Shown here one piece after another: positions 2,086 to 64,000 of a stretch of DNA of 64,000 nucleotides. The DNA is from Naegleria gruberi (lineage: Eukaryota), in assembly GCA_000004985.1 (NCBI GenBank), contig GG738894.1; one strand, written 5' to 3'. The first letter of the stretch is position 1; every line of letters starts with the position of its first letter. The translations under genes were made by a program, and so were the position numbers. The notes below the pieces were generated by a model. The model was not told the DNA's origin and ran no database searches. It saw nothing but the letters and a program-made list of their open reading frames with translations.

Positions 2086-5000
2086 ATGCCTCAAAGTAGA
2101 ACAATTACACCAAATTTTCCCTCCATCAACATGTTCCTATTTCATCGAGAACCGTACTTTTTAGATTCGAGTGAGGATAAAAATCGTATTCAAATCAACA
2201 ACAAGAACAATAATAGGGATGATGGAGAAGCAAAAACAATATTAAGGATGAGAAGTTTGGATGAAACTGTGCGGGATGATGATACGCATTCTTCTTCAAT
2301 ACATCATCAAGAAGCCTTGGAACATGTTTTTGGTAAGACAAGAACATCTTCCGCTACAACGAGAACAGTATCACAAAATTCAAGGAATACTAATTATTTT
2401 AATGCTAATACAATAGCAAAAAGCGAGAATAACAACAACTACAAGAAAAACCTTATTAATCACCTGATAATATTATTATTAATTACACTCTTAGTTGTAC
2501 TTCCAACCTTTGTAGAGTGCCTACATCCATTCGCCACATACAATTGGAACAATGATGATGAGATTTGGTTTGCTCAGTCGGCACCATTTTCTGGCCCTAG
2601 TAGCACAATTGGGACAGGTAAGTAGTATCAACATGTAAATGTTCTATAGTGAGTACTTTAATTAGAATTGAGAAATGGAATATTAGCTGCTTTTAATGAA
2701 ATCAACTCTGTTGGAGGTATATTCGGAAAGAAGAAGCTGAGATTGATCAGTATGGACGATGGCTATGAACCACCCAATACAGTTCGCAACATTAATAATT
2801 TTCTGAATGGAAACAAGACAATATTTGGATTTATTGGAGTGGTAGGCTCACCCACTATTCTTGCAGCCTATGATTTGGTAGTGTCGTCTGGTCTTCCTCT
2901 GATTGGAAGTTACACAGGAGCTACATTTTTGAGACAGCCCTTTCATGCAAATTTTGTAAACATTAGACCATCATACTATGATGAAACAGCTGCAATTATG
3001 GATGTATTGATTGGAAAAAACATGGCGAGGAAAATATCAGTCCTTCATCAAGATGATCCTTTTGGAATTAATGGATATGAAGGAGTTAAACGTATACTTG
3101 ACCATATGGGAATTCCAATGTGTTCATCAGGAAGTTATCAAAGAAACACACTCAACGTTGAGGATGCATTCTACAAGATTGCAAAGTGTGATCCAGATGC
3201 TATTGTTGTAGTGGCACTGTATGCACCAGCAACAAAATTCATCAAAATGGTTACCAACTCGACCCTTTACCGAAAGGATATTTTATTTGCAGCAACCTCA
3301 ATAGCCAGCGATTTAATTGTAAAGGAGCTAGGCCCTGAAATTGCTCCAAGAGTTCTGTTTTCACAAGTTGCCCCTTCTCCAACAGATACATCCTCGACCC
3401 TTGTTAAATCTTTCATCACCGCAAGGAAATCAATAGATTCTAATTTTACACAAGGTACATTTATTGAAATAGAGGGATATATTGCTGGAAAAATGACGTA
3501 TCACTTGCTCCACAGAATAATTGGATACATGTCCCCCAGTAACATGCTGACTAATCTTTACTATTCACAAGAAGTTATGTTTGACAATTTGAAATTAGGA
3601 CCATTCTCTTCAGTGTCTGTCAAGGATCCTGTTTACCTTATTCAAACAAATTTTTCCACTCAATTTGATTGCAATCAAGGCTCAAAATCAGTTTGGAGGA
3701 CGAAAGCTGATTCTAACTTGAATTTCTATAATTATGCACCTCCATTTTCATGGTACACTTCTGGCACATGTATTTCAACCCCAGGCGATGTCATCAATCC
3801 AATTTTATTAGCACAACTTGTTTATAACAATCTAGGATCTTCTAATACCTATCTCACTAACGGAATTAAAGCCGCCTTATCCACTGCATATGTCCAGGGA
3901 AGACCTATACATCTACTAACTCGCACTTACTCAGATTTCCAATCTCTTATTTCCACCACTCAAGATCTCGTTGAAAACTACTATATTACTGCATTGGTTG
4001 GATCTTCTGGATTGGGAGAAGTTATTAGTTTAAATACTTCCTCTATTGATCTATTCAGAGAGATATTTAAAACATCCTTCCCACATATTCCTCTGATTGG
4101 AAGTGTAGTTGACAATCCGTCAATCATGTCAACAACTGGTTCGTTGTTTATCCCATCCATGGTAAACATTAGAAGTACAATCATTGAGGAAATTGGAACT
4201 TTGCTTCAACATGCATTCAAAAGAGGAGTTACCAGAATATCAATAGTGAACTGTCCTGCATACGTCCATATCAACAAAATTTTCAAACTTTTAATGTCAA
4301 AATTGCAACTAACAATTGAGAGTGAGCATGGATGCTCAGATACCATTCTTTTCGATAGCATCTCGATAAACCCACAAGTGGTTCTAGTAGCATGTGCATC
4401 TGCCATTCTCCCTGGAACTCTTTTAAAGTTGGATGCAAGTAGTAATCTTAGACAAGATGCATTGTTTTTTGTTTTGGAAGAGAAGAAAAAGCTAGTCTTG
4501 TCAAGCCTTGAGAGTGGACCTAAAGGTGTACAAAGACCTATCTTATATAGTTCTTCATTCCCAGATCCAAAAATCTCGGCCGTAACCATTGTTTCAAGAT
4601 TTAAATCAACTACACCGCCTCTAACAGATCTTTCTGGGTATTATTCTTCTGATTTGGCTCTTGAAGGATATTTTATTGGAGAGTTTGTTGGATCAATATT
4701 GGGATCAGTTGCAGATTCAGCACCCTCAATAACAGGTCAGGCAATTATTGACTTTATATACAAAAGTCAACAGATAGTGGTGAGAGACCAAAAGTATGGA
4801 TACTTTATTAGAGACAAGAAAAATTCATTGTGCAATATTGGGTCGAGAACAAGATTTCTATTCCAGATAAGAAATTGTTCAACCTCAATACTATCAACAA
4901 CAGGTTTCCAACAACAATCATGTTGTTTACAATCTGTTTTAGAGGATTCCAGTACCCTCAACTTTAGAAGACCAATGCAGTTCGTTAGATTCAAACCAGG

Positions 5001-7125
5001 AGACACTGAACAACTTACCATCGAAGCAATAGATGATTTTGCAAAAGGAGTAATATCTTTCATTAATGATATTAATACCATGGGGAAATATTCATTTGCC
5101 TTTCAATTTCTTACTCAAACTTTTAATGGATCTTCTGATATTCAAATGTTAGCTAACGATTTAACCTCTAAACAGCAAATATTTGGTGTTATCGCTCCAG
5201 ATGTAGATTATGACATTGAAATGTTTACGAACATTAGTTTACCAATTATCGGCCCCAAAACTGCTAACATGCAATACAGAAATTACAAAAAAAATGTAAT
5301 TAACATCTACCCTTCCTTAATAGATGAAATCTTCAATTTGGTTGAATTTTTCCTAAAATTTAGTGACGCAATTACTATTGTTTATGAGTCCTTGGATGTT
5401 AATAATTATGCTCAACCCCAGGTATTGAAAACTATCCAAAATATAATAACTAACAGACAACTTTCAAGAGTTTCCCTCACTTGTATGACTTGTGTCAGTG
5501 ATCAAGCAGGGTCAGTAATAATTATGGCAGAAACAGAAGAAATCATTCAGTTTATTAGAGCAAATCAGAAGATAATGAACAGAGTTGGTTTGATTTCAGA
5601 AGCATATGAAGAGCATGATGATCTTAAAGAGTTGTTGTCCCTTCATTCGAATGTTTACATGTCCACTATAGTATCCCTCACAACAGAAATGACGGGATTT
5701 GTGGAATCTGAATTCACAAAGCATTTTCAAGTTTCGTTTCCAAACGACGTGCCAACAATAGAGTCTATAGATGGTTTCGTTTCCTTTTTGTTTGTTGAAA
5801 AAGTATTTGAGTCATTCTTAGATAGAATACAACCAAGACAACAACAGGCTTTCATTGACAAGATATATAGTCTCTCTGTTTTAGATATTGGTGACATTAC
5901 TCTTGGAAAGTTCACCAATACCTGCAATCAAGGAACAAGAAGATTGTACGTTAGCAGATTTTCCCTTAGTAACACAAGTGAAGTCATAACAGTCACAGAA
6001 CCAAACAGTCTTTTCACAATTTCAACATGTGGGTATAACTTCCCTTCCCCTGCAGTCATGGATTATCTTTATTATATTCTAATTTCTATATTGGCTATAA
6101 TTTTTTTGATTGTAGCCATGGGAATATCAGGTTTATTAATTTACAGACAGTATAAGGCTAAAAAGTCACACCTTCATGCTCCAAAAGGAGGAGTCATTTC
6201 TTTTGCGTTTACTGATATTCAAAATTCTACTGTATTGTGGCAATACAATGAGAAAGCAATGAAATTAGCTCTTGCTATACATAACAAGATAGTTAGGGAT
6301 AATATTAAGAAATACAGAGGTTACGAAGTCAAAACTCAAGGGGATTCATTCTTTGTTGCTTTTAGAAAGATAGAAGATTGTATTAATTGGGCATTCTCTG
6401 TTCAAAGTGATTTATTGAAAGCAAATTGGCCATCTGATATTATTACACAGTATGATTGTAGACCAGAATTTGAGGAAGGAACAAAAGTTTTGATTTATTC
6501 TGGTTTGAGGGTAAGAATGGGGCTTCATTGTGGTCAAGCTGAATATATTTTTGATAAGACTGTGAAAAGACCAGATTACTTTGGCAACACCATTAACCAG
6601 ACTGCCAGAATTCAAGCTCTTGCAAGAGGAGGAGAAATATTATGTAGTGAGGCCATGTTACAAGAAAGCAAATATTTATTTAAAATTTCTGGCCCAAGTT
6701 TCGAGGAGGAATTGTCGCATCAATCCTTAAACATACCAAGAAGAAGCTCTGAATCCACATTGTCAAAGAAGCGTAGATCAGTTGTTCCTGGATCCAATCC
6801 AATCTATACAGCCGAAGATTTTGGATATTGCTCCCTAAAAGGTATTAAGGAGGAAGTCAGAGTCTTTACACTTAAAAATAATGATATGAAACTTAGAGTT
6901 TTTCCACCTATTGGAAGATACAAAAATATTGAGGAAACATCGAACAATACCTTGCGATCGATTGCTTCCGTTCCAACATTTGAAACATCAAGTATCAATG
7001 GAGATGATATCATTGTGCACATTCCTGATCAAGCATCAGACAACCAAAAGAGCAAACCTGAACGGTTGAACACTCAAGCGATTGAACTTCCAGAGATTAT
7101 GATTTCTGGTGTAGATAATAAATAA
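2086..7125 (+). CDS. Receptor-type class III nucleotidyl (adenylyl/guanylyl) cyclase. Two exons (2086..2617 and 2666..7125, intron ~2618..2665).
   Basis: Exon 1 ends GGT|GTAAGT and the acceptor is TTAG at 2664-2665, giving …STIGTG-E-LRNGILAAFNEINSVGGIFGKK in frame. Domain order is N-terminal cytosolic region, a TM (LINHLIILLLITLLVVL), about 1200 aa of ectodomain with two PBP type-I (ANF-receptor/LivJ-like) modules, a TM (ILISILAIIFLIVAMGISGLLIY), then the cyclase catalytic domain (FTDIQNST…KTQGDSFFVAF…GLRVRMGLHCGQAE…GNTINQTARIQ). Confidence 0.75.
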
Positions 7126-12162: not shown

Positions 12163-12403
12163 AGACGCTTTAAAATAAAAAATGAATAGAATGAGTCGGG
12201 CATATTTTCAAATGTGGAGGTGCGAAGGGTTGGGATGTCCTACTACTAATAATCATCAAGCTAGGACGGTGGTATCATCGTCGGGTGGTGAGAAGGATCA
12301 TGATTGGAGGCGCACCAATTCAATATTAAAATTATTTAATCTTTTTGATCGGAATAGTAGCAATAGTAGTGGTGGTTATAAATATTGTAAAAATAATTTT
12401 TCC

Positions 12404-13600
12404 ATGATGATGATAAGTTTTGGAGTGATGATCATGTTGTTAATGTCATTATTGAATAGTACGAGTTTTGTGAATGCTGCTGAAGTGCCATTATTATTGG
12501 GAAGTGGATCTTCACTTGTTGAAGAATTTCATAAAGAAGCAGCAAATTATTTTATTGGATACATGAGAAGAAGTGTCGATGTAATGTATGATGCCTCTGG
12601 ATCGGGGACTGGTGTGAAAAATTTATTTAATTCGAATGGAGTTTATTCATTTGCAGCAACTGATTATGGATTAAAGGCAGCTGACAGAAAAATTAATACA
12701 GATGCAAAAGTGTTGCCAATCATGACAACATATATTTCAATAATTGTATGTAGGATAGCGAAAGAAATTAATATTGAACATAATTAGAGTAATATTGAAG
12801 GATTGAAGGGTGGTTATTCAATTACCTTTTCCCAGGAGGCGCTTGTAGGAATATTTAATGGAACCATTTCCAGATGGAATGACCAAACATTGCAATTGTT
12901 GAATCCATCACTTGCACTCCCAAATACATCAATTTATGTGGTTGTTAGAAATGATTCAAGTGGCACTACTGACATGCTCACTACTGGATTATCATCATTT
13001 TCAAAGGAGTGGGCTTCAACATATGGATCGGGAACTTTAATCAAATGGTCATCCCTCTTATCGAACAGAATAATCTATGCAGAGGATGCCAAAGATGTTT
13101 CTTTCATCATTACTAGCACACCAAACACTATTGGGTACTCTACACCTACTACTTTTGAGCAGCATGCTCCAGCAACTATCAAAACAAAATTAGGAGCTTC
13201 TGTCACTCCCTCATCGAGCTATCTAAAAGGTGTAATAACAAGTGGAATATCATTTAATGAGAATTTTATGCATCCTTCTGTGGTTATAGATAGGCCAGAT
13301 ATTTACCCATTCGTTGGTGTTTCTTATATTGTCTATTTGTCATCCACAATGAATGATTGTGTAAAGGCTACTTATTTGGGCAAGCTTTTGGAATATTATA
13401 CTTCAGATAGAGCTACCAAGATTATTGAGGATGCCGCCTTTTCTTCACTCTTCATTGATGCATCTGTAAAGGAAAGATATATGGGATATTTGAAAAATTT
13501 CACATGTAATGGTAAACCTGTACTGAGTTCCAGTTCCATCACTCAATATTCGATAGCACTTTTAATTTTATTGATTATTCAATTATTATGTATTTTATAA
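12404..13600 (+). CDS. Secreted PstS/DING-like phosphate-binding protein (type II periplasmic-binding-protein fold). Two exons with a 42-nt phase-0 intron at ~12746..12787.
   Basis: Signal peptide MMMISFGVMIMLLMSLLNSTSFVNA. PstS motifs DASGSGTG and …GTISRWNDQTLQLLNP…IYVVVRNDSSGTTDMLT. Removing GTATGT…TTAG takes out the stop and restores …VLPIMTTYISII-SNIEGLKGGYSITFSQEALVGIFNGTISRWND. C-terminal hydrophobic tail (SIALLILLIIQLLCIL), which looks like a GPI signal. Confidence 0.7.
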
Positions 13601-13610
13601 GTTATATATT

Positions 13611-14759
13611 TTACAAAACCAAAGCAAATAATGCAACGATAACCATAATTAAGGAAACAAGATGCATACTCAATACATTTGCGCTATTAACTCTTGTATC
13701 GAAAGTGGTATATGTTTGTACATAATCCAAATAACTTGTAACATTTGTATAGATACCTCTATTTGAAACCGATCCTGCAGTTCCACATCCGTTAGGTCCA
13801 AAACTAACAATACCAAAAACAATATAATCATTTGTAGAATTAGGAGCTTTGTAAAATAATGGCCCTCCAGAATCACCTTGACAGCTAGTTATCATTAATT
13901 AATTATTGGAATTAATATTTTCAACTTAAATAATGAGGAATAAATACACCTACCTGTCATGTCCTTTTCCATCGCCAGCACAGATTTGTTTTGGTGATGA
14001 AGCATCCAAGTTAATAGCATTACATTTACTCATATCAACCACAGGTACAGTAACTTTCATCAAATCTGTTGGAAGTGGTTGAGTATCAACAGTTGTTCCC
14101 CATCCAGCAACAATAGATGAGAAACCAATAGGAATTGATCCAATTTCCAAATAGGCAGCCTTAGCTGTTTTACCGTCCAATGTCATTGCTGATTCCAATT
14201 CAAGAATAGCTATATCATTTACAACATTATTATTTGAATCACTATATTGAGGATGGACATGAATGTTCTTTATCTTAATATATTTACGTTGTACATCACT
14301 CACAGAATTTCCACCATATACAGCAATCCAAGGTAATGTATCAGGGGGACTGAAACAATGGGCAGCTGAGAGTAAATATTTGGAATTTATAATTGAAGCT
14401 CCACAAGTGTGACTGTAGCTTTTGGCGCTGATATCATCAGCCTGTTGGAGTGAGACAATGAATGGAAATTCGTTGGTGCTTGCCTTTTCACCATTGGACA
14501 CTTTAGAATCTCTCACTTTAAGTTGTTGAGCAGTTGATAATTTAGATATTAAGGCAACAATACTCAACAGAAGGAGGGCAAGAGTCCTCTTCCTTCCACT
14601 GTTACTACTTCCTCCGATCAACATTGTGTGAATTTTTATTGTTGTTGAAATAATTAAATTGGAAGTGTGAAGGACAAAACCAATCCAAAGATTACTGTGG
14701 AAGAGGAAATAGAGCGTTCTTTTAGGAGATAATTTGATCATTCTTTTATTATATTTCAC
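13611..14759 (-). CDS. Trypsin-like (S1) serine protease. Two exons with an intron at ~13885..13953. The start is probably the internal Met at ~14624.
   Basis: LSAAHC (His), DIAIL (Asp), GDSGGP (Ser) and C-terminal [10 protein letters not shown]. Exon 1 …[10 protein letters not shown] joins [11 protein letters not shown] through GTAGGT…CTAG. Signal peptide MLIGGSS…[19 protein letters not shown]-terminal hydrophobic tail ([16 protein letters not shown]). Confidence 0.75.
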
Positions 14760-60870: not shown

Positions 60871-60920
60871 NNNNNNNNNNNNNNNNNNNNNNNNNNNNNN
60901 NNNNNNNNNNNNNNNNNNNN
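60871..60920. other. Assembly gap (50 N)
   Basis: Run of N. Confidence 1.
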
Positions 60921-61909: not shown

Positions 61910-64000
61910 NNNNNNNNNNNNNNNNNNNNNNNNNNNNNNNNNNNNNNNNNNNNNNNNNNNNNNNNNNNNNNNNNNNNNNNNNNNNNNNNNNNNNNNNNNN
62001 NNNNNNNNNNNNNNNNNNNNNNNNNNNNNNNNNNNNNNNNNNNNNNNNNNNNNNNNNNNNNNNNNNNNNNNNNNNNNNNNNNNNNNNNNNNNNNNNNNNN
62101 NNNNNNNNNNNNNNNNNNNNNNNNNNNNNNNNNNNNNNNNNNNNNNNNNNNNNNNNNNNNNNNNNNNNNNNNNNNNNNNNNNNNNNNNNNNNNNNNNNNN
62201 NNNNNNNNNNNNNNNNNNNNNNNNNNNNNNNNNNNNNNNNNNNNNNNNNNNNNNNNNNNNNNNNNNNNNNNNNNNNNNNNNNNNNNNNNNNNNNNNNNNN
62301 NNNNNNNNNNNNNNNNNNNNNNNNNNNNNNNNNNNNNNNNNNNNNNNNNNNNNNNNNNNNNNNNNNNNNNNNNNNNNNNNNNNNNNNNNNNNNNNNNNNN
62401 NNNNNNNNNNNNNNNNNNNNNNNNNNNNNNNNNNNNNNNNNNNNNNNNNNNNNNNNNNNNNNNNNNNNNNNNNNNNNNNNNNNNNNNNNNNNNNNNNNNN
62501 NNNNNNNNNNNNNNNNNNNNNNNNNNNNNNNNNNNNNNNNNNNNNNNNNNNNNNNNNNNNNNNNNNNNNNNNNNNNNNNNNNNNNNNNNNNNNNNNNNNN
62601 NNNNNNNNNNNNNNNNNNNNNNNNNNNNNNNNNNNNNNNNNNNNNNNNNNNNNNNNNNNNNNNNNNNNNNNNNNNNNNNNNNNNNNNNNNNNNNNNNNNN
62701 NNNNNNNNNNNNNNNNNNNNNNNNNNNNNNNNNNNNNNNNNNNNNNNNNNNNNNNNNNNNNNNNNNNNNNNNNNNNNNNNNNNNNNNNNNNNNNNNNNNN
62801 NNNNNNNNNNNNNNNNNNNNNNNNNNNNNNNNNNNNNNNNNNNNNNNNNNNNNNNNNNNNNNNNNNNNNNNNNNNNNNNNNNNNNNNNNNNNNNNNNNNN
62901 NNNNNNNNNNNNNNNNNNNNNNNNNNNNNNNNNNNNNNNNNNNNNNNNNNNNNNNNNNNNNNNNNNNNNNNNNNNNNNNNNNNNNNNNNNNNNNNNNNNN
63001 NNNNNNNNNNNNNNNNNNNNNNNNNNNNNNNNNNNNNNNNNNNNNNNNNNNNNNNNNNNNNNNNNNNNNNNNNNNNNNNNNNNNNNNNNNNNNNNNNNNN
63101 NNNNNNNNNNNNNNNNNNNNNNNNNNNNNNNNNNNNNNNNNNNNNNNNNNNNNNNNNNNNNNNNNNNNNNNNNNNNNNNNNNNNNNNNNNNNNNNNNNNN
63201 NNNNNNNNNNNNNNNNNNNNNNNNNNNNNNNNNNNNNNNNNNNNNNNNNNNNNNNNNNNNNNNNNNNNNNNNNNNNNNNNNNNNNNNNNNNNNNNNNNNN
63301 NNNNNNNNNNNNNNNNNNNNNNNNNNNNNNNNNNNNNNNNNNNNNNNNNNNNNNNNNNNNNNNNNNNNNNNNNNNNNNNNNNNNNNNNNNNNNNNNNNNN
63401 NNNNNNNNNNNNNNNNNNNNNNNNNNNNNNNNNNNNNNNNNNNNNNNNNNNNNNNNNNNNNNNNNNNNNNNNNNNNNNNNNNNNNNNNNNNNNNNNNNNN
63501 NNNNNNNNNNNNNNNNNNNNNNNNNNNNNNNNNNNNNNNNNNNNNNNNNNNNNNNNNNNNNNNNNNNNNNNNNNNNNNNNNNNNNNNNNNNNNNNNNNNN
63601 NNNNNNNNNNNNNNNNNNNNNNNNNNNNNNNNNNNNNNNNNNNNNNNNNNNNNNNNNNNNNNNNNNNNNNNNNNNNNNNNNNNNNNNNNNNNNNNNNNNN
63701 NNNNNNNNNNNNNNNNNNNNNNNNNNNNNNNNNNNNNNNNNNNNNNNNNNNNNNNNNNNNNNNNNNNNNNNNNNNNNNNNNNNNNNNNNNNNNNNNNNNN
63801 NNNNNNNNNNNNNNNNNNNNNNNNNNNNNNNNNNNNNNNNNNNNNNNNNNNNNNNNNNNNNNNNNNNNNNNNNNNNNNNNNNNNNNNNNNNNNNNNNNNN
63901 NNNNNNNNNNNNNNNNNNNNNNNNNNNNNNNNNNNNNNNNNNNNNNNNNNNNNNNNNNNNNNNNNNNNNNNNNNNNNNNNNNNNNNNNNNNNNNNNNNNN
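61910..64000. other. Assembly gap (2091 N)
   Basis: Run of N to the window end. Confidence 1.

What the first reader, a model, noticed from the sequence alone, without database searches (positions are those of the whole stretch)
12404..13600. Secreted, probably GPI-anchored PstS/DING-type phosphate-binding protein in a eukaryote, revealed by removing an in-frame 42-nt intron
PstS-family high-affinity phosphate-binding proteins are bacterial. Eukaryotic DING proteins are rare and contentious. This gene has a eukaryotic signal peptide, a spliceosomal intron (GTATGT…TTAG), a C-terminal hydrophobic tail and the PstS anion-binding motifs (SGSGTG; RNDSSGTT). That argues against bacterial contamination. 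It supports either horizontal acquisition followed by domestication or an ancient eukaryotic lineage of this fold.
Basis: partly seen in the sequence, partly recalled or inferred. Interest (0 to 1): 0.6.

Follow-up and report, generated by a model that had tools for sequence, protein, structure and literature searches.

The report
Surface-anchored phosphate-binding protein gene in Naegleria
This is a real, already catalogued gene of the amoeba Naegleria gruberi for a cell-surface protein built like the bacterial phosphate catcher PstS; it belongs to a little-noticed family of such domains found across eukaryotes, often fused to signalling enzymes, so it is a candidate extracellular phosphate sensor.

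Summary
Window 12404..13600 (+) is a two-exon gene with a 42-nt phase-0 intron (12746..12787, GTATGT…TTAG, in-frame TAG). The spliced 384-aa product has an N-terminal signal-like segment, a PstS-type domain and a C-terminal hydrophobic tail. It matches Pfam PBP_like_2 at 5.5e-22. The AlphaFold model (pLDDT 88.6) superposes on E. coli, Yersinia and Burkholderia PstS at TM 0.90-0.92. All phosphate-ligand residues are kept.

It is not new as a sequence. GenBank lists it as [quoted passage not shown], with the same intron but a start 222 nt upstream. It is not DING-type. The premise that PstS is bacterial is too simple: an exhaustive search found many eukaryotic PstS domains (Heterolobosea, jakobids, euglenids, Amoebozoa, ichthyosporeans, fungi, molluscs, green algae). 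Many are ectodomains of adenylate/guanylate cyclases, class C GPCRs or a phosphodiesterase.

The Naegleria protein sits inside this eukaryote-type group (+61 bits over a bacterial profile; 86-97/100 NJ bootstraps). The nearest bacterial group is Anaerolineae PstS. Recent transfer is not supported.

Best reading: a lipid-tethered surface phosphate binder with no ABC partner nearby, used for sensing or capture. The GPI anchor, the start codon and the ligand are untested.

The parts
12404..12745 (+). Exon 1 (aa 1-114): signal-like segment plus the first part of the PstS domain
   Evidence: Codon-usage score is +0.29, against -0.10 for the upstream extension. Homologues in N. fowleri, N. lovaniensis and Willaertia also start directly with a signal peptide.
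12404..12478 (+). Predicted signal peptide, aa 1-25 (MMMISFGVMIMLLMSLLNSTSFVNA|AEV). Cleavage after V-N-A is inferred from the -3/-1 rule.
   Evidence: Hydropathy. The AF2 model shows a low-confidence helix at aa 3-15. No dedicated predictor was available.
12746..12787 (+). Spliceosomal intron, 42 nt, phase 0, GTATGT...TTAG, with an in-frame TAG
   Evidence: The alignment to PstS structures is ungapped across the junction. The same intron is removed in GenBank model P0001. A 43-nt intron occurs in the Willaertia homologue.
12788..13600 (+). Exon 2 (aa 115-384 plus stop at 13598-13600)
   Evidence: Codon-usage score is +0.24. Only 10 nt separate this stop from the stop of the convergent trypsin-like gene at 13611, so there is no room for a further exon.
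12488..13519 (+). PstS-type Venus-flytrap domain, about aa 29-358, interrupted by the intron
   Evidence: Pfam PBP_like_2 covers aa 31-322. TIGR00975 covers aa 33-335 at 140 bits, below the 205 cutoff. AF2 pLDDT is 88.6. Foldseek TM to PstS is 0.90-0.92.
12596..12613 (+). SGSGTG loop. S67 is equivalent to E. coli PstS Ser38, a phosphate ligand.
12947..12970 (+). RNDSSGTT loop. R168, D170, S172, G173 and T174 are equivalent to E. coli Arg135, Asp137, Ser139, Gly140 and Thr141.
   Evidence: R168, S171, S172, G173 and T174 are invariant in the 119-sequence alignment.
13358..13507 (+). Cys305 (13358-13360) and Cys354 (13505-13507): a conserved cysteine pair and presumed disulfide, a hallmark of the eukaryote-type group and of Anaerolineae PstS
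   Evidence: Cys in 62/74 and 59/74 eukaryote-type domains, and essentially absent at the first column in the other bacterial sequences. Anaerolineae C-termini read ...TCNG.... The disulfide itself is inferred.
13523..13597 (+). C-terminal extension, aa 360-384 (SSSSITQYSIALLILLIIQLLCIL), with a GPI-signal-like layout: small residues at a putative omega site (S360-S362), a polar spacer of about 7 residues, and a 15-residue hydrophobic tail that ends at the stop
   Evidence: Bacterial homologues end at ...CNGxPxx, so this tail is a eukaryotic add-on. No GPI predictor was available.
12182..12403 (+). 74-codon upstream in-frame extension used by the GenBank model (458 aa). Doubtful as coding sequence.
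   Evidence: Searches show that P0001 starts here. The coding score is -0.10, against +0.24 to +0.29 for the exons. No homologue carries such an extension. Not resolved without transcript data.

Best explanation
The locus is a functional Naegleria gruberi nuclear gene of two exons with a 42-nt intron. It encodes a stand-alone, cell-surface PstS-type phosphate-binding protein.

Inferred steps:
- The N-terminal hydrophobic segment sends the protein into the ER.
- The C-terminal 25 residues act as a GPI-attachment signal, or at least as a membrane tail.
- This leaves the two-lobed Venus-flytrap domain tethered on the outside of the plasma membrane.
- There it closes on orthophosphate using the same ligands as bacterial PstS: Ser/Thr hydroxyls, backbone NH groups, one Asp and one Arg.

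The protein is not a recent bacterial import. It is a divergent member of an old clade of PstS domains found in many eukaryotes, whose closest bacterial relatives are PstS lipoproteins of Anaerolineae (Chloroflexota).

In many members of that clade the same domain is the ectodomain of a receptor. Partners include class III adenylate/guanylate cyclases in Heterolobosea, jakobids, euglenids and molluscs; class C 7TM receptors in fungi and others; and a phosphodiesterase in Tetraselmis.

The Naegleria protein has no cytoplasmic part, and no PstCAB-type gene is nearby. The most likely role is therefore extracellular phosphate sensing or capture, delivered to a separate membrane partner (a receptor such as a receptor cyclase, or a secondary Pi transporter) rather than to an ABC importer.

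Shown here: gene structure, fold, ligand-residue conservation, clade membership. Inferred: secretion, GPI anchoring, phosphate as the ligand, the downstream partner.
For: - Gene structure and splice junction.
- Family assignment: Pfam PBP_like_2 at 5.5e-22. The best NCBIfam model is PstS TIGR00975. The PDB sequence hits were 19 PstS/phosphate-binding proteins plus one weak (E=0.016) hit deposited as 'Alkaline phosphatase' (5jk4), which Foldseek describes as a phosphate-binding protein.
- Fold: AF2 pLDDT 88.6 and pTM 0.85. Foldseek top hits are classical PstS with target-normalised TM 0.90-0.92 and rmsd 2.1-2.4 A over 337 columns.
- Ligand residues, E. coli numbering then Naegleria: T10->S37, F11->L38 (a backbone contact), S38=S67, D56=D87, R135=R168, D137=D170, S139=S172, G140=G173, T141=T174.
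- Topology: only two hydrophobic segments, at the extreme N- and C-termini. The C-terminal tail starts right after the point where bacterial homologues end.
- Eukaryotic family. The exhaustive search, with names and Pfam or module scans, shows PstS domains in Willaertia, Acrasis, N. fowleri, N. lovaniensis, Andalucia, Entosiphon, Rhabdomonas, Rigifila, Fabomonas, Chromosphaera, Amoeba proteus, Calcarisporiella, Haliotis, Argopecten and Tetraselmis. Of the top 149 representatives, 34 carry cyclase, kinase-cyclase, 7tm_3, PDE, TRP-like or ANF modules.
- Clade membership. N. gruberi scores 262 bits against a eukaryote-type profile built without Heterolobosea and 201 bits against the bacterial profile. 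Its NJ sister group is eukaryote-type in 97/100 bootstraps. A eukaryote-type-only clade that includes it is recovered in 86/100 bootstraps once Anaerolineae sequences are added. The cysteine pair is shared.
- No transporter nearby. Pfam hits on the ten largest neighbouring ORFs are all eukaryotic domains and none is BPD_transp_1 or ABC_tran. By contrast the nearest bacterial relative, P0277, sits in a pstS-pstC-pstA-pstB-phoU operon.
Against: - No experimental or transcript evidence was available. Expression, the start codon, secretion, the anchor and the ligand are all inferred.
- The TIGR00975 equivalog cutoff is not reached (140 against 205 bits).
- The putative signal peptide has no basic n-region. 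The upstream ATG at 12182 has a more A-rich context, and GenBank uses it.
- One N-glycosylation sequon (N169-D-S) lies inside the phosphate-binding loop.
- The protein is only 30-34% identical to the TM-anchored PstS proteins of N. lovaniensis and Willaertia, which are 53% identical to each other. It is therefore a fast-evolving or paralogous copy whose function may have drifted.
- The trees are simple NJ trees on Kimura-corrected distances. Of the 74 'eukaryote-type' domains, 27 (from about two dozen proteins) are labelled only by their sequence features. The exact clade has low bootstrap support.
- Absence of PstCAB from the whole N. gruberi genome was not tested.
Confidence: 0.6

Rival explanations
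1. Nutrient-capture variant of the same protein. The tethered PstS concentrates scarce environmental phosphate at the surface and hands it to a secondary Pi transporter (PHO84- or PiT-type). It has no signalling role.
For: High-affinity Pi capture is the ancestral job of PstS, and the ligand set is intact. The protein has no cytoplasmic part. Lipid-tethered PstS is normal in bacteria without a periplasm; the closest bacterial relatives are lipoproteins (LAAC motif).
Against: No case of a PstS handing phosphate to a non-ABC transporter turned up in the literature searched here. In eukaryotic relatives the domain is repeatedly fused to signalling modules, not to transporters. Naegleria feeds on bacteria, which are rich in phosphorus (general knowledge).
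Confidence: 0.25
2. Recent horizontal transfer of a bacterial pstS into N. gruberi, followed by domestication (gain of an intron, a signal peptide and an anchor).
For: The fold and motifs are bacterial-like. The C-terminal ...TCNGKPVL is nearly identical to Anaerolineae PstS ends (...TCNGKPVVVK...TCNGAPVLK). Among named genomes, no close (>35% identity) eukaryotic homologue was found.
Against: - Best bacterial identity is only about 26-33% (31% for the top word-index hit P0002).
- The protein scores 61 bits higher against a eukaryote-type profile than against a bacterial one.
- It groups with eukaryote-type domains in 86-97/100 bootstraps and never as sister to Anaerolineae (0/100).
- Composition and codon usage match the host.
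- A 65%-identical environmental fragment shows the lineage is not confined to one strain.
Confidence: 0.05
3. The GenBank 458-aa model is right. Translation starts at 12182, the first hydrophobic segment is an uncleaved signal-anchor, and the C-terminal tail is a second membrane span or is unprocessed. The protein would then be an integral membrane protein, not GPI-anchored. The PstS domain still faces outward.
For: The frame is open from 12182 and the ATG context there is A-rich (printout). GenBank uses this start. The extension is rich in basic residues, which fits a cytoplasmic N-terminus.
Against: The extension has a negative coding score (-0.10, against +0.24 to +0.29) and no homologue. 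All related stand-alone proteins begin with the signal peptide. A hydrophobic stretch that ends exactly at the stop with no cytoplasmic residues is the GPI-signal pattern. Relatives with true TM anchors carry basic cytoplasmic tails.
Confidence: 0.2
4. The domain no longer binds phosphate. It binds a different ligand, or it serves as a structural or adhesion surface protein.
For: It falls below the PstS equivalog cutoff. It diverges strongly from other heterolobosean copies. A sequon lies in the binding loop.
Against: All ligand positions are conserved or conservatively replaced, and the pocket-forming loops are among the most conserved columns. No match was found to phosphonate, phosphite, sulfate or molybdate binder families above the PstS hits.
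Confidence: 0.1
5. Assembly contamination or a dead pseudogene.
For: None beyond the bacterial-looking domain.
Against: - The frame is intact after removing one canonical intron.
- GC content and codon usage are host-like.
- The gene is embedded among eukaryotic genes on a contig listed as 499,907 bp.
- The neighbouring gene has a 69-nt spliceosomal intron.
Confidence: 0.01

Closest known systems
Bacterial PstS (phosphate ABC transporter substrate-binding protein; Pfam PF12849 PBP_like_2, NCBIfam TIGR00975; e.g. E. coli PstS 1IXH, M. tuberculosis PstS-1)
   Same: - Same two-lobed type II binding-protein fold (TM 0.90-0.92).
- Same phosphate-ligand residues.
- Extracytoplasmic location and, as in Gram-positive and mycobacterial PstS, tethering to the membrane by a lipid.
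   Different: - A eukaryotic nuclear gene with an intron.
- A eukaryotic signal peptide and a GPI-type C-terminal signal instead of an N-terminal lipoprotein signal.
- No pstCAB-phoU neighbours.
- Below the equivalog cutoff.
- Only about 22-33% identical.
PstS lipoproteins of Anaerolineae (Chloroflexota), e.g. P0277 and loci L002-L081
   Same: The closest bacterial group in the NJ tree. They share the Cys pair and the ...TC(N/K/Q)G(x)P.. C-terminus.
   Different: They are operon-encoded components of a Pst transporter and bacterial lipoproteins. N. gruberi is never their direct sister (0/100). Support for the sister relationship between the two groups is weak (27/100).
Eukaryotic receptors with a PBP_like_2 ectodomain: PBP_like_2+7tm_3 class C GPCR-like proteins noted in Spizellomyces (PMC3251606), Plasmodiophora (PMC4815078) and Amoebozoa (PMC10445921). 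Found here in addition: PstS+cyclase in Willaertia, Acrasis, Andalucia and Entosiphon; PstS+kinase-like+guanylate cyclase in Haliotis and Argopecten; PstS+PDE in Tetraselmis.
   Same: The same eukaryote-type clade of PstS domains. Signal peptide at the N-terminus, Cys pair, and the domain facing outward.
   Different: The N. gruberi protein has no transmembrane signalling module at all. It has only a lipid or hydrophobic tail, so any signalling must go through a separate partner.
Stand-alone TM-anchored PstS proteins of N. fowleri (P0325), N. lovaniensis (P0134) and Willaertia (P0276)
   Same: Same organismal group and the same overall plan: signal peptide, one PstS domain and a C-terminal membrane anchor.
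   Different: Those three are mutually 53-82% identical and have a true TM helix plus a basic cytoplasmic tail. The N. gruberi protein is only 30-34% identical to N. lovaniensis P0134 and Willaertia P0276 (its identity to N. fowleri P0325 was not measured) and ends in a GPI-type tail. Intron positions differ. It is a paralogue or a very fast-evolving orthologue.
DING proteins (PfluDING 2Q9T/4F1U, human HPBP)
   Same: Same superfamily and the same phosphate-binding principle.
   Different: No DINGGG N-terminus. Sequence match to a DING-like structure is only E=0.016. Structural match is TM 0.62-0.70 with rmsd 4-5.6 A. The review PMC7922408 gives DINGGG and 70-80% mutual identity as the family signature.

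Membership tests
PstS / PBP_like_2 phosphate-binding proteins | Significant match to the family profile above the curated threshold | tested here: met
   Pfam PF12849 scores 79.2 bits against a cutoff of 27, E=5.5e-22, covering profile positions 12-267 of 267.
PstS / PBP_like_2 phosphate-binding proteins | Two-lobed type II periplasmic-binding-protein fold that superposes on solved PstS | tested here: met
   AF2 pLDDT is 88.6. Foldseek hits 5wnn, 2z22 and E. coli PstS with TM 0.90-0.92 and rmsd 2.1-2.4 A.
PstS / PBP_like_2 phosphate-binding proteins | The phosphate-ligand residues (E. coli T10, F11, S38, D56, R135, S139, G140, T141, plus D137) | tested here: met
   S37, L38, S67, D87, R168, S172, G173, T174 and D170. 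T->S and F->L are the common variants in both bacteria and eukaryotes.
Bacterial PstS equivalog (TIGR00975), the component of the PstSCAB importer | Score above the equivalog cutoff | tested here: not met
   140.3 bits against a cutoff of 205.
Bacterial PstS equivalog (TIGR00975), the component of the PstSCAB importer | Genetic linkage to, or presence of, pstC/pstA/pstB | tested here: not met
   None of the ten largest other ORFs in the window matches a permease or ABC ATPase family; four of the ten had no Pfam hit at all. The bacterial relative P0277 has the full operon. The whole N. gruberi genome could not be searched with these tools.
PstS / PBP_like_2 phosphate-binding proteins | Measured high-affinity orthophosphate binding | not testable with these tools
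   Needs recombinant protein.
DING proteins | Mature N-terminus DINGGG | tested here: not met
   The mature N-terminus would be AEVPLLLGSGSS. The signature is described in PMC7922408.
DING proteins | High identity to Pseudomonas or human DING proteins, and a closer structural match to DING than to PstS | tested here: not met
   The only DING-like PDB sequence hit is 5jk4 at E=0.016. Foldseek gives PfluDING TM 0.65-0.70, against 0.90-0.92 for PstS.
Eukaryote-type PstS-domain clade (unnamed; ectodomains of cyclases, 7tm_3 receptors, a PDE, and anchored stand-alone proteins) | Groups with eukaryotic rather than bacterial PstS domains | tested here: met
   +61 bits for the eukaryote-type profile built without Heterolobosea. 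NJ sister group is eukaryote-type in 97/100 bootstraps. A eukaryote-type-only clade is recovered in 86/100 bootstraps with Anaerolineae included. Caveats: distance trees only, and part of the set is labelled from sequence features.
Eukaryote-type PstS-domain clade (unnamed; ectodomains of cyclases, 7tm_3 receptors, a PDE, and anchored stand-alone proteins) | Conserved Cys pair (..M.DC.. and ..C.G at the domain end) | tested here: met
   C305 and C354. Cys is present in 62/74 and 59/74 clade members.
GPI-anchored proteins | N-terminal ER signal peptide | tested here: inconclusive
   There is a hydrophobic core at aa 3-17 and a V-N-A cleavage motif. The n-region is not basic, the start codon is uncertain, and no predictor was available.
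GPI-anchored proteins | C-terminal signal: small omega, omega+1 and omega+2 residues, a polar spacer of about 5-10 residues, and a hydrophobic tail of 10-20 residues that ends at the C-terminus with no cytoplasmic residues | tested here: met
   S360-S361-S362, then spacer S363-S369 (SITQYS region), then I370-L384, 15 residues, ending at the stop. This was read by rule, not by a trained predictor.
GPI-anchored proteins | Release by PI-PLC, or detection of the anchor | not testable with these tools
   Experimental.
Receptor cyclases / class C GPCRs with a PstS ectodomain | A transmembrane signalling module (cyclase, 7tm_3, PDE) in the same polypeptide | tested here: not met
   Pfam finds only PBP_like_2. 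There are only two terminal hydrophobic segments. The stop is 10 nt from the neighbouring gene's stop.

The most novel reading that the evidence does not exclude
PstS-type Venus-flytrap domains may be dedicated extracellular orthophosphate receptors of eukaryotes. On this reading one old clade was wired to cAMP/cGMP cyclases, class C 7TM receptors and phosphodiesterases in lineages from Discoba to molluscs. The GPI-tethered N. gruberi protein would work as a detachable co-receptor, reporting external phosphate to a receptor-type adenylate cyclase and so feeding into starvation and differentiation decisions.
Probability: 0.2. Interest if true: 0.75.

Novelty: new variant of a known kind. Interest (0 to 1): 0.5.

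Why it matters
How eukaryotic cells detect phosphate outside the cell is still poorly understood. The known candidates are transporters that double as sensors, or receptors with other main ligands.

A PstS domain is one of the most specific phosphate binders known. Finding it, with its ligand residues intact, on the surface of an amoeba makes a concrete hypothesis testable. The same holds for finding it fused to cyclases, 7TM receptors and a phosphodiesterase in many eukaryotic lineages, including molluscan proteins currently annotated as natriuretic-peptide or retinal guanylyl cyclase receptors. The test needs only simple binding and second-messenger assays.

For this particular gene the practical value is smaller. 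The gene is already catalogued. Its start codon is probably mis-annotated. It is not evidence for the contested DING proteins, nor for a recent bacterial transfer.

Tried and rejected
- **Transcript or contig look-ups.** P0001 is 'not on record' in the contig index. So the start codon and the intron have no transcript support here.
- **Foldseek against AFDB50.** Not available.
- **Literature searches.** 'Naegleria' with 'phosphate-binding protein', 'PstS' or 'periplasmic'+'HGT' found nothing relevant. 'PstS'+'guanylyl cyclase'+'extracellular domain' and 'PstS'+'Venus flytrap'+'GPCR' found nothing.
- **Profile search with the eukaryotic alignment through the word-indexed database.** It was limited to 8000 candidates and missed most eukaryotic members. 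It did add Willaertia P0276 and Anaerolineae-type P0277.
- **Shared intron positions with the Willaertia homologue.** None, so introns give no evidence on common ancestry.
- **Paralogues in the window.** None by tblastn.
- **DING assignment.** Rejected.
- **Contamination.** Rejected.
- **Recent HGT.** Rejected.
- **Exact-clade NJ bootstrap values.** These were low (0-11%) because single sequences wander. Relaxed clade criteria were used instead. That is weaker than a proper ML analysis.
- **TATAAATA at 12378-12385.** It lies just upstream of the 12404 ATG. It was noted but not used as evidence, because the spacing to the ATG is too short to interpret.
Full report
**1. What is in the sequence**

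Window 12404..13600 on the + strand reads as an ORF broken once by a TAG. Removing 12746..12787 restores one 384-codon frame. That stretch is 42 nt, GTATGT...TTAG, 26% GC, phase 0.

The splice is more than a convenience:
- HMMER alignments to solved PstS structures run without any gap across the junction.
- The GenBank protein for this locus (P0001) equals the spliced translation over 100% of its length.
- A homologous Willaertia gene has a 43-nt intron, so very short introns are normal in this group.

Kyte-Doolittle scanning finds only two hydrophobic stretches, aa 1-23 and aa 363-384.

**2. Where it comes from**

The 100% database match is 'periplasmic phosphate binding protein-like protein [Naegleria gruberi]', on a contig listed as 499,907 bp. 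The window has uniform GC of about 33%. It is full of eukaryotic genes:
- a receptor-type adenylate cyclase
- a patatin-like phospholipase
- an EF2-like GTPase
- F-box, ankyrin/RGS and BTB/BACK proteins
- a trypsin-like protease with its own 69-nt GTAGGT...CTAG intron

Contamination is excluded.

**3. What the protein is**

- Pfam gives only PBP_like_2 (E=5.5e-22).
- The best NCBIfam model is PstS TIGR00975, at 140 bits against an equivalog cutoff of 205.
- The PDB sequence hits were 19 PstS/phosphate-binding proteins plus one weak (E=0.016) hit deposited as 'Alkaline phosphatase' (5jk4), which Foldseek describes as a phosphate-binding protein.
- An AlphaFold2 model built on a 119-sequence alignment is confident (pLDDT 88.6, pTM 0.85).
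- That model superposes on Burkholderia, Yersinia and E. coli PstS with target-normalised TM 0.90-0.92 and rmsd 2.1-2.4 A.
- DING proteins (PfluDING and the Stenotrophomonas protein) reach only TM 0.62-0.70 at rmsd 4-5.6 A.

Every residue that contacts phosphate in E. coli PstS is kept or conservatively replaced: S37, L38, S67, D87, R168, D170, S172, G173, T174. The protein lacks the DINGGG N-terminus that defines DING proteins (PMC7922408). It is therefore a classical PstS-type domain, not a DING protein.

**4. The ends of the protein**

Bacterial homologues stop at ...CNGxPxx. The Naegleria protein continues from ...TCNGKPVL with SSSSITQYSIALLILLIIQLLCIL and then the stop.

That add-on has the layout of a GPI-attachment signal:
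- small residues at S360-S362
- a polar spacer of about seven residues
- a 15-residue hydrophobic tail with nothing after it

The stop lies 10 nt from the stop of the convergent neighbouring gene, so no further exon can follow.

Related stand-alone proteins in N. fowleri, Willaertia and several protists have a true TM helix followed by a basic cytoplasmic tail instead.

At the N-terminus, GenBank starts 74 codons upstream, at 12182.
- that stretch has a negative coding score (-0.10, against +0.24 to +0.29)
- it has no homologue
- all relatives begin directly with a signal peptide

Only transcript data can settle the start. With either start the PstS domain faces outward.

**5. It is not alone among eukaryotes**

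An exhaustive HMMER search of 1.84 billion cluster representatives gave 4571 hits. After the self-hit, the top of the list is dominated by eukaryotic proteins (names; domains).

| Organism | Protein | Architecture |
|---|---|---|
| Chromosphaera | 2386 aa | four PstS domains, Ephrin_rec_like, TRP-like region |
| Entosiphon, Rhabdomonas | | multi-PstS proteins |
| Rigifila | | PstS plus ANF_receptor |
| Fabomonas | | 2xPstS, kinase, cyclase |
| Willaertia, Acrasis, Andalucia, Entosiphon | | PstS, TM, class III cyclase |
| Haliotis, Argopecten | annotated 'ANP receptor-like' / 'retinal guanylyl cyclase-like' | PstS, kinase-like, guanylate cyclase |
| Calcarisporiella and others | | PstS plus 7tm_3 |
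| Tetraselmis | | PstS plus PDEase_I |
| Amoeba proteus, N. fowleri, N. lovaniensis, Willaertia | | anchored single-domain forms |

Of the top 149 representatives, 59 fall in this group and 34 carry a recognisable eukaryotic signalling module.

The literature had noticed PBP_like_2+7tm_3 proteins in Spizellomyces, Plasmodiophora and Amoebozoa, at the level of domain tables only. Nothing was found on the Naegleria gene or on the cyclase fusions.

**6. Where the Naegleria protein sits**

- In an NJ tree of 301 near-full-length domains, all 47 eukaryote-labelled domains and the N. gruberi domain fall in one group of 72-76.
- The unlabelled members of that group look eukaryotic (signal peptide plus TM or GPI-like tails). 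The two exceptions are bacterial lipoproteins.
- The sister group of the N. gruberi domain is eukaryote-type in 97/100 bootstraps.
- A profile built from eukaryote-type domains, excluding all Heterolobosea, scores it at 262 bits. A bacterial profile scores it at 201 bits. E. coli PstS shows the opposite preference, -106 bits.
- A cysteine pair (C305 and C354) is present in about 80-84% of the group and is essentially absent at the first position in other bacteria.

The two bacterial exceptions (P0277, P0227) share the Cys pair and the ...TC(N/Q)GKPV end. P0277 lies in a pstS-pstC-pstA-pstB-phoU operon. Its relatives in GTDB genomes are almost all Anaerolineae (Chloroflexota).

With 18 Anaerolineae sequences added:
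- the eukaryote-type domains still form their own clade including N. gruberi (86/100)
- Anaerolineae are its sister in the point tree, but with weak support (27/100)
- N. gruberi is never directly sister to them (0/100)

The simplest history is an old acquisition, or shared ancestry, of one PstS lineage, followed by wide reuse as an ectodomain in eukaryotes. These are distance trees with partly feature-based labels, and an ML analysis is needed.

**7. Relation to other Naegleria**

N. lovaniensis, N. fowleri and Willaertia share a conserved TM-anchored PstS that is 53-82% identical among them. The N. gruberi protein is only 30% identical to the N. lovaniensis copy and 34% identical to the Willaertia copy. 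A search with the N. lovaniensis protein found no closer N. gruberi copy.

The window gene is therefore a divergent paralogue or a fast-evolving orthologue that also changed its anchor. A 133-aa environmental fragment at 65% identity shows that its lineage exists outside the sequenced strain.

**8. How it most likely works**

Shown: gene structure, fold, conserved binding pocket, membership of the eukaryote-type clade, and absence of transporter genes nearby.

Inferred: ER entry, GPI attachment, display on the outer leaflet, and closure on orthophosphate.

The protein has no cytoplasmic part. Type I ABC importers are essentially a prokaryotic device (general knowledge; not tested in this genome). 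The bound state must therefore be read by another membrane protein. The repeated fusion of this very domain to cyclases, 7TM receptors and a PDE in relatives makes a sensing role the better guess. Plain phosphate capture for a secondary transporter is the main alternative.

**9. Verdict**

It is wrong on the DING label, on the assumed rarity and on recent transfer.

The gene itself is already in GenBank. What is not described in the literature searched is the GPI-type stand-alone form and the breadth of the eukaryotic PstS-ectodomain family. Interest is moderate for the gene and higher for the family-level lead.

Noticed in passing
window 13611..14759 (-), intron 13885..13953: The convergent neighbour is a trypsin-like serine protease (Pfam Trypsin, 2e-27) with a 69-nt GTAGGT...CTAG intron. 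It has an N-terminal signal-like segment, and its C-terminus (...[27 protein letters not shown]) also has a GPI-signal layout. Two adjacent genes may therefore encode lipid-anchored surface proteins. Their stop codons are only 10 nt apart.
   Followed up: partly
window 2668..7125 (+): A very large ORF (1485 aa as listed) is a receptor-type adenylate cyclase. It carries bacterial-style binding-protein ectodomains (Peripla_BP_6/ANF_receptor and Peripla_BP_A-cyclase), a TM helix and a class III cyclase domain. It lies 5 kb upstream of the PstS gene on the same strand. No functional link was shown, but it is the kind of partner a tethered binding protein could signal through.
   Followed up: partly
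window 12182..12403: The GenBank model (458 aa) starts at an upstream ATG. The 74 extra codons have a negative codon-usage score and no homologue, so the annotated start is probably wrong. A TATAAATA lies at 12378-12385.
   Followed up: partly
P0135/P0271 (Haliotis), P0147 (Argopecten), plus about ten further kinase-cyclase representatives: Molluscan receptor guanylyl cyclases annotated as 'atrial natriuretic peptide receptor 2-like' or 'retinal guanylyl cyclase 2-like' carry a PstS-type (PBP_like_2) ectodomain instead of the usual ANF_receptor domain. Their names probably mislead about the ligand.
   Followed up: partly
P0132 (Willaertia), P0171 (Acrasis), P0169/P0319 (Andalucia), P0157 (Entosiphon): PstS ectodomain + TM + class III cyclase fusions occur in three Discoba lineages: Heterolobosea, Jakobida and Euglenida. 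This suggests an old receptor architecture in that supergroup.
   Followed up: partly
P0134 (N. lovaniensis) against P0325 (N. fowleri): The N. lovaniensis model (393 aa) stops in the middle of the TM helix (...LVAPILLAILVD). Its 82%-identical N. fowleri orthologue continues through the helix and a basic tail (434 aa). The N. lovaniensis gene model is probably truncated at a missed splice site.
   Followed up: no
L002-L081 (GTDB genomes), P0277 contig: The bacterial PstS subgroup closest to the eukaryotic clade comes almost entirely from Anaerolineae (Chloroflexota). It has a conserved ...TCNG... C-terminus and a Cys pair, and sits in ordinary pstSCAB-phoU operons.
   Followed up: partly
L001:6001-7457 (Willaertia magna): The Willaertia homologue has two introns, of about 79 nt and 43 nt, at positions different from the N. 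gruberi intron. Intron positions are not shared between the two genes.
   Followed up: yes
window 60871..60920 and 61910..64000: Runs of N: one 50-nt assembly gap and a terminal block of 2091 N. The block is likely the scaffold end or padding, so only about 61.9 kb of the window is real sequence.
   Followed up: yes
window 12947..12955 (aa 168-170): An N-glycosylation sequon (N169-D-S) lies inside the phosphate-binding loop RNDSSGTT. If it were used it would interfere with binding. Other sequons are at N138, N160 and N351.
   Followed up: no
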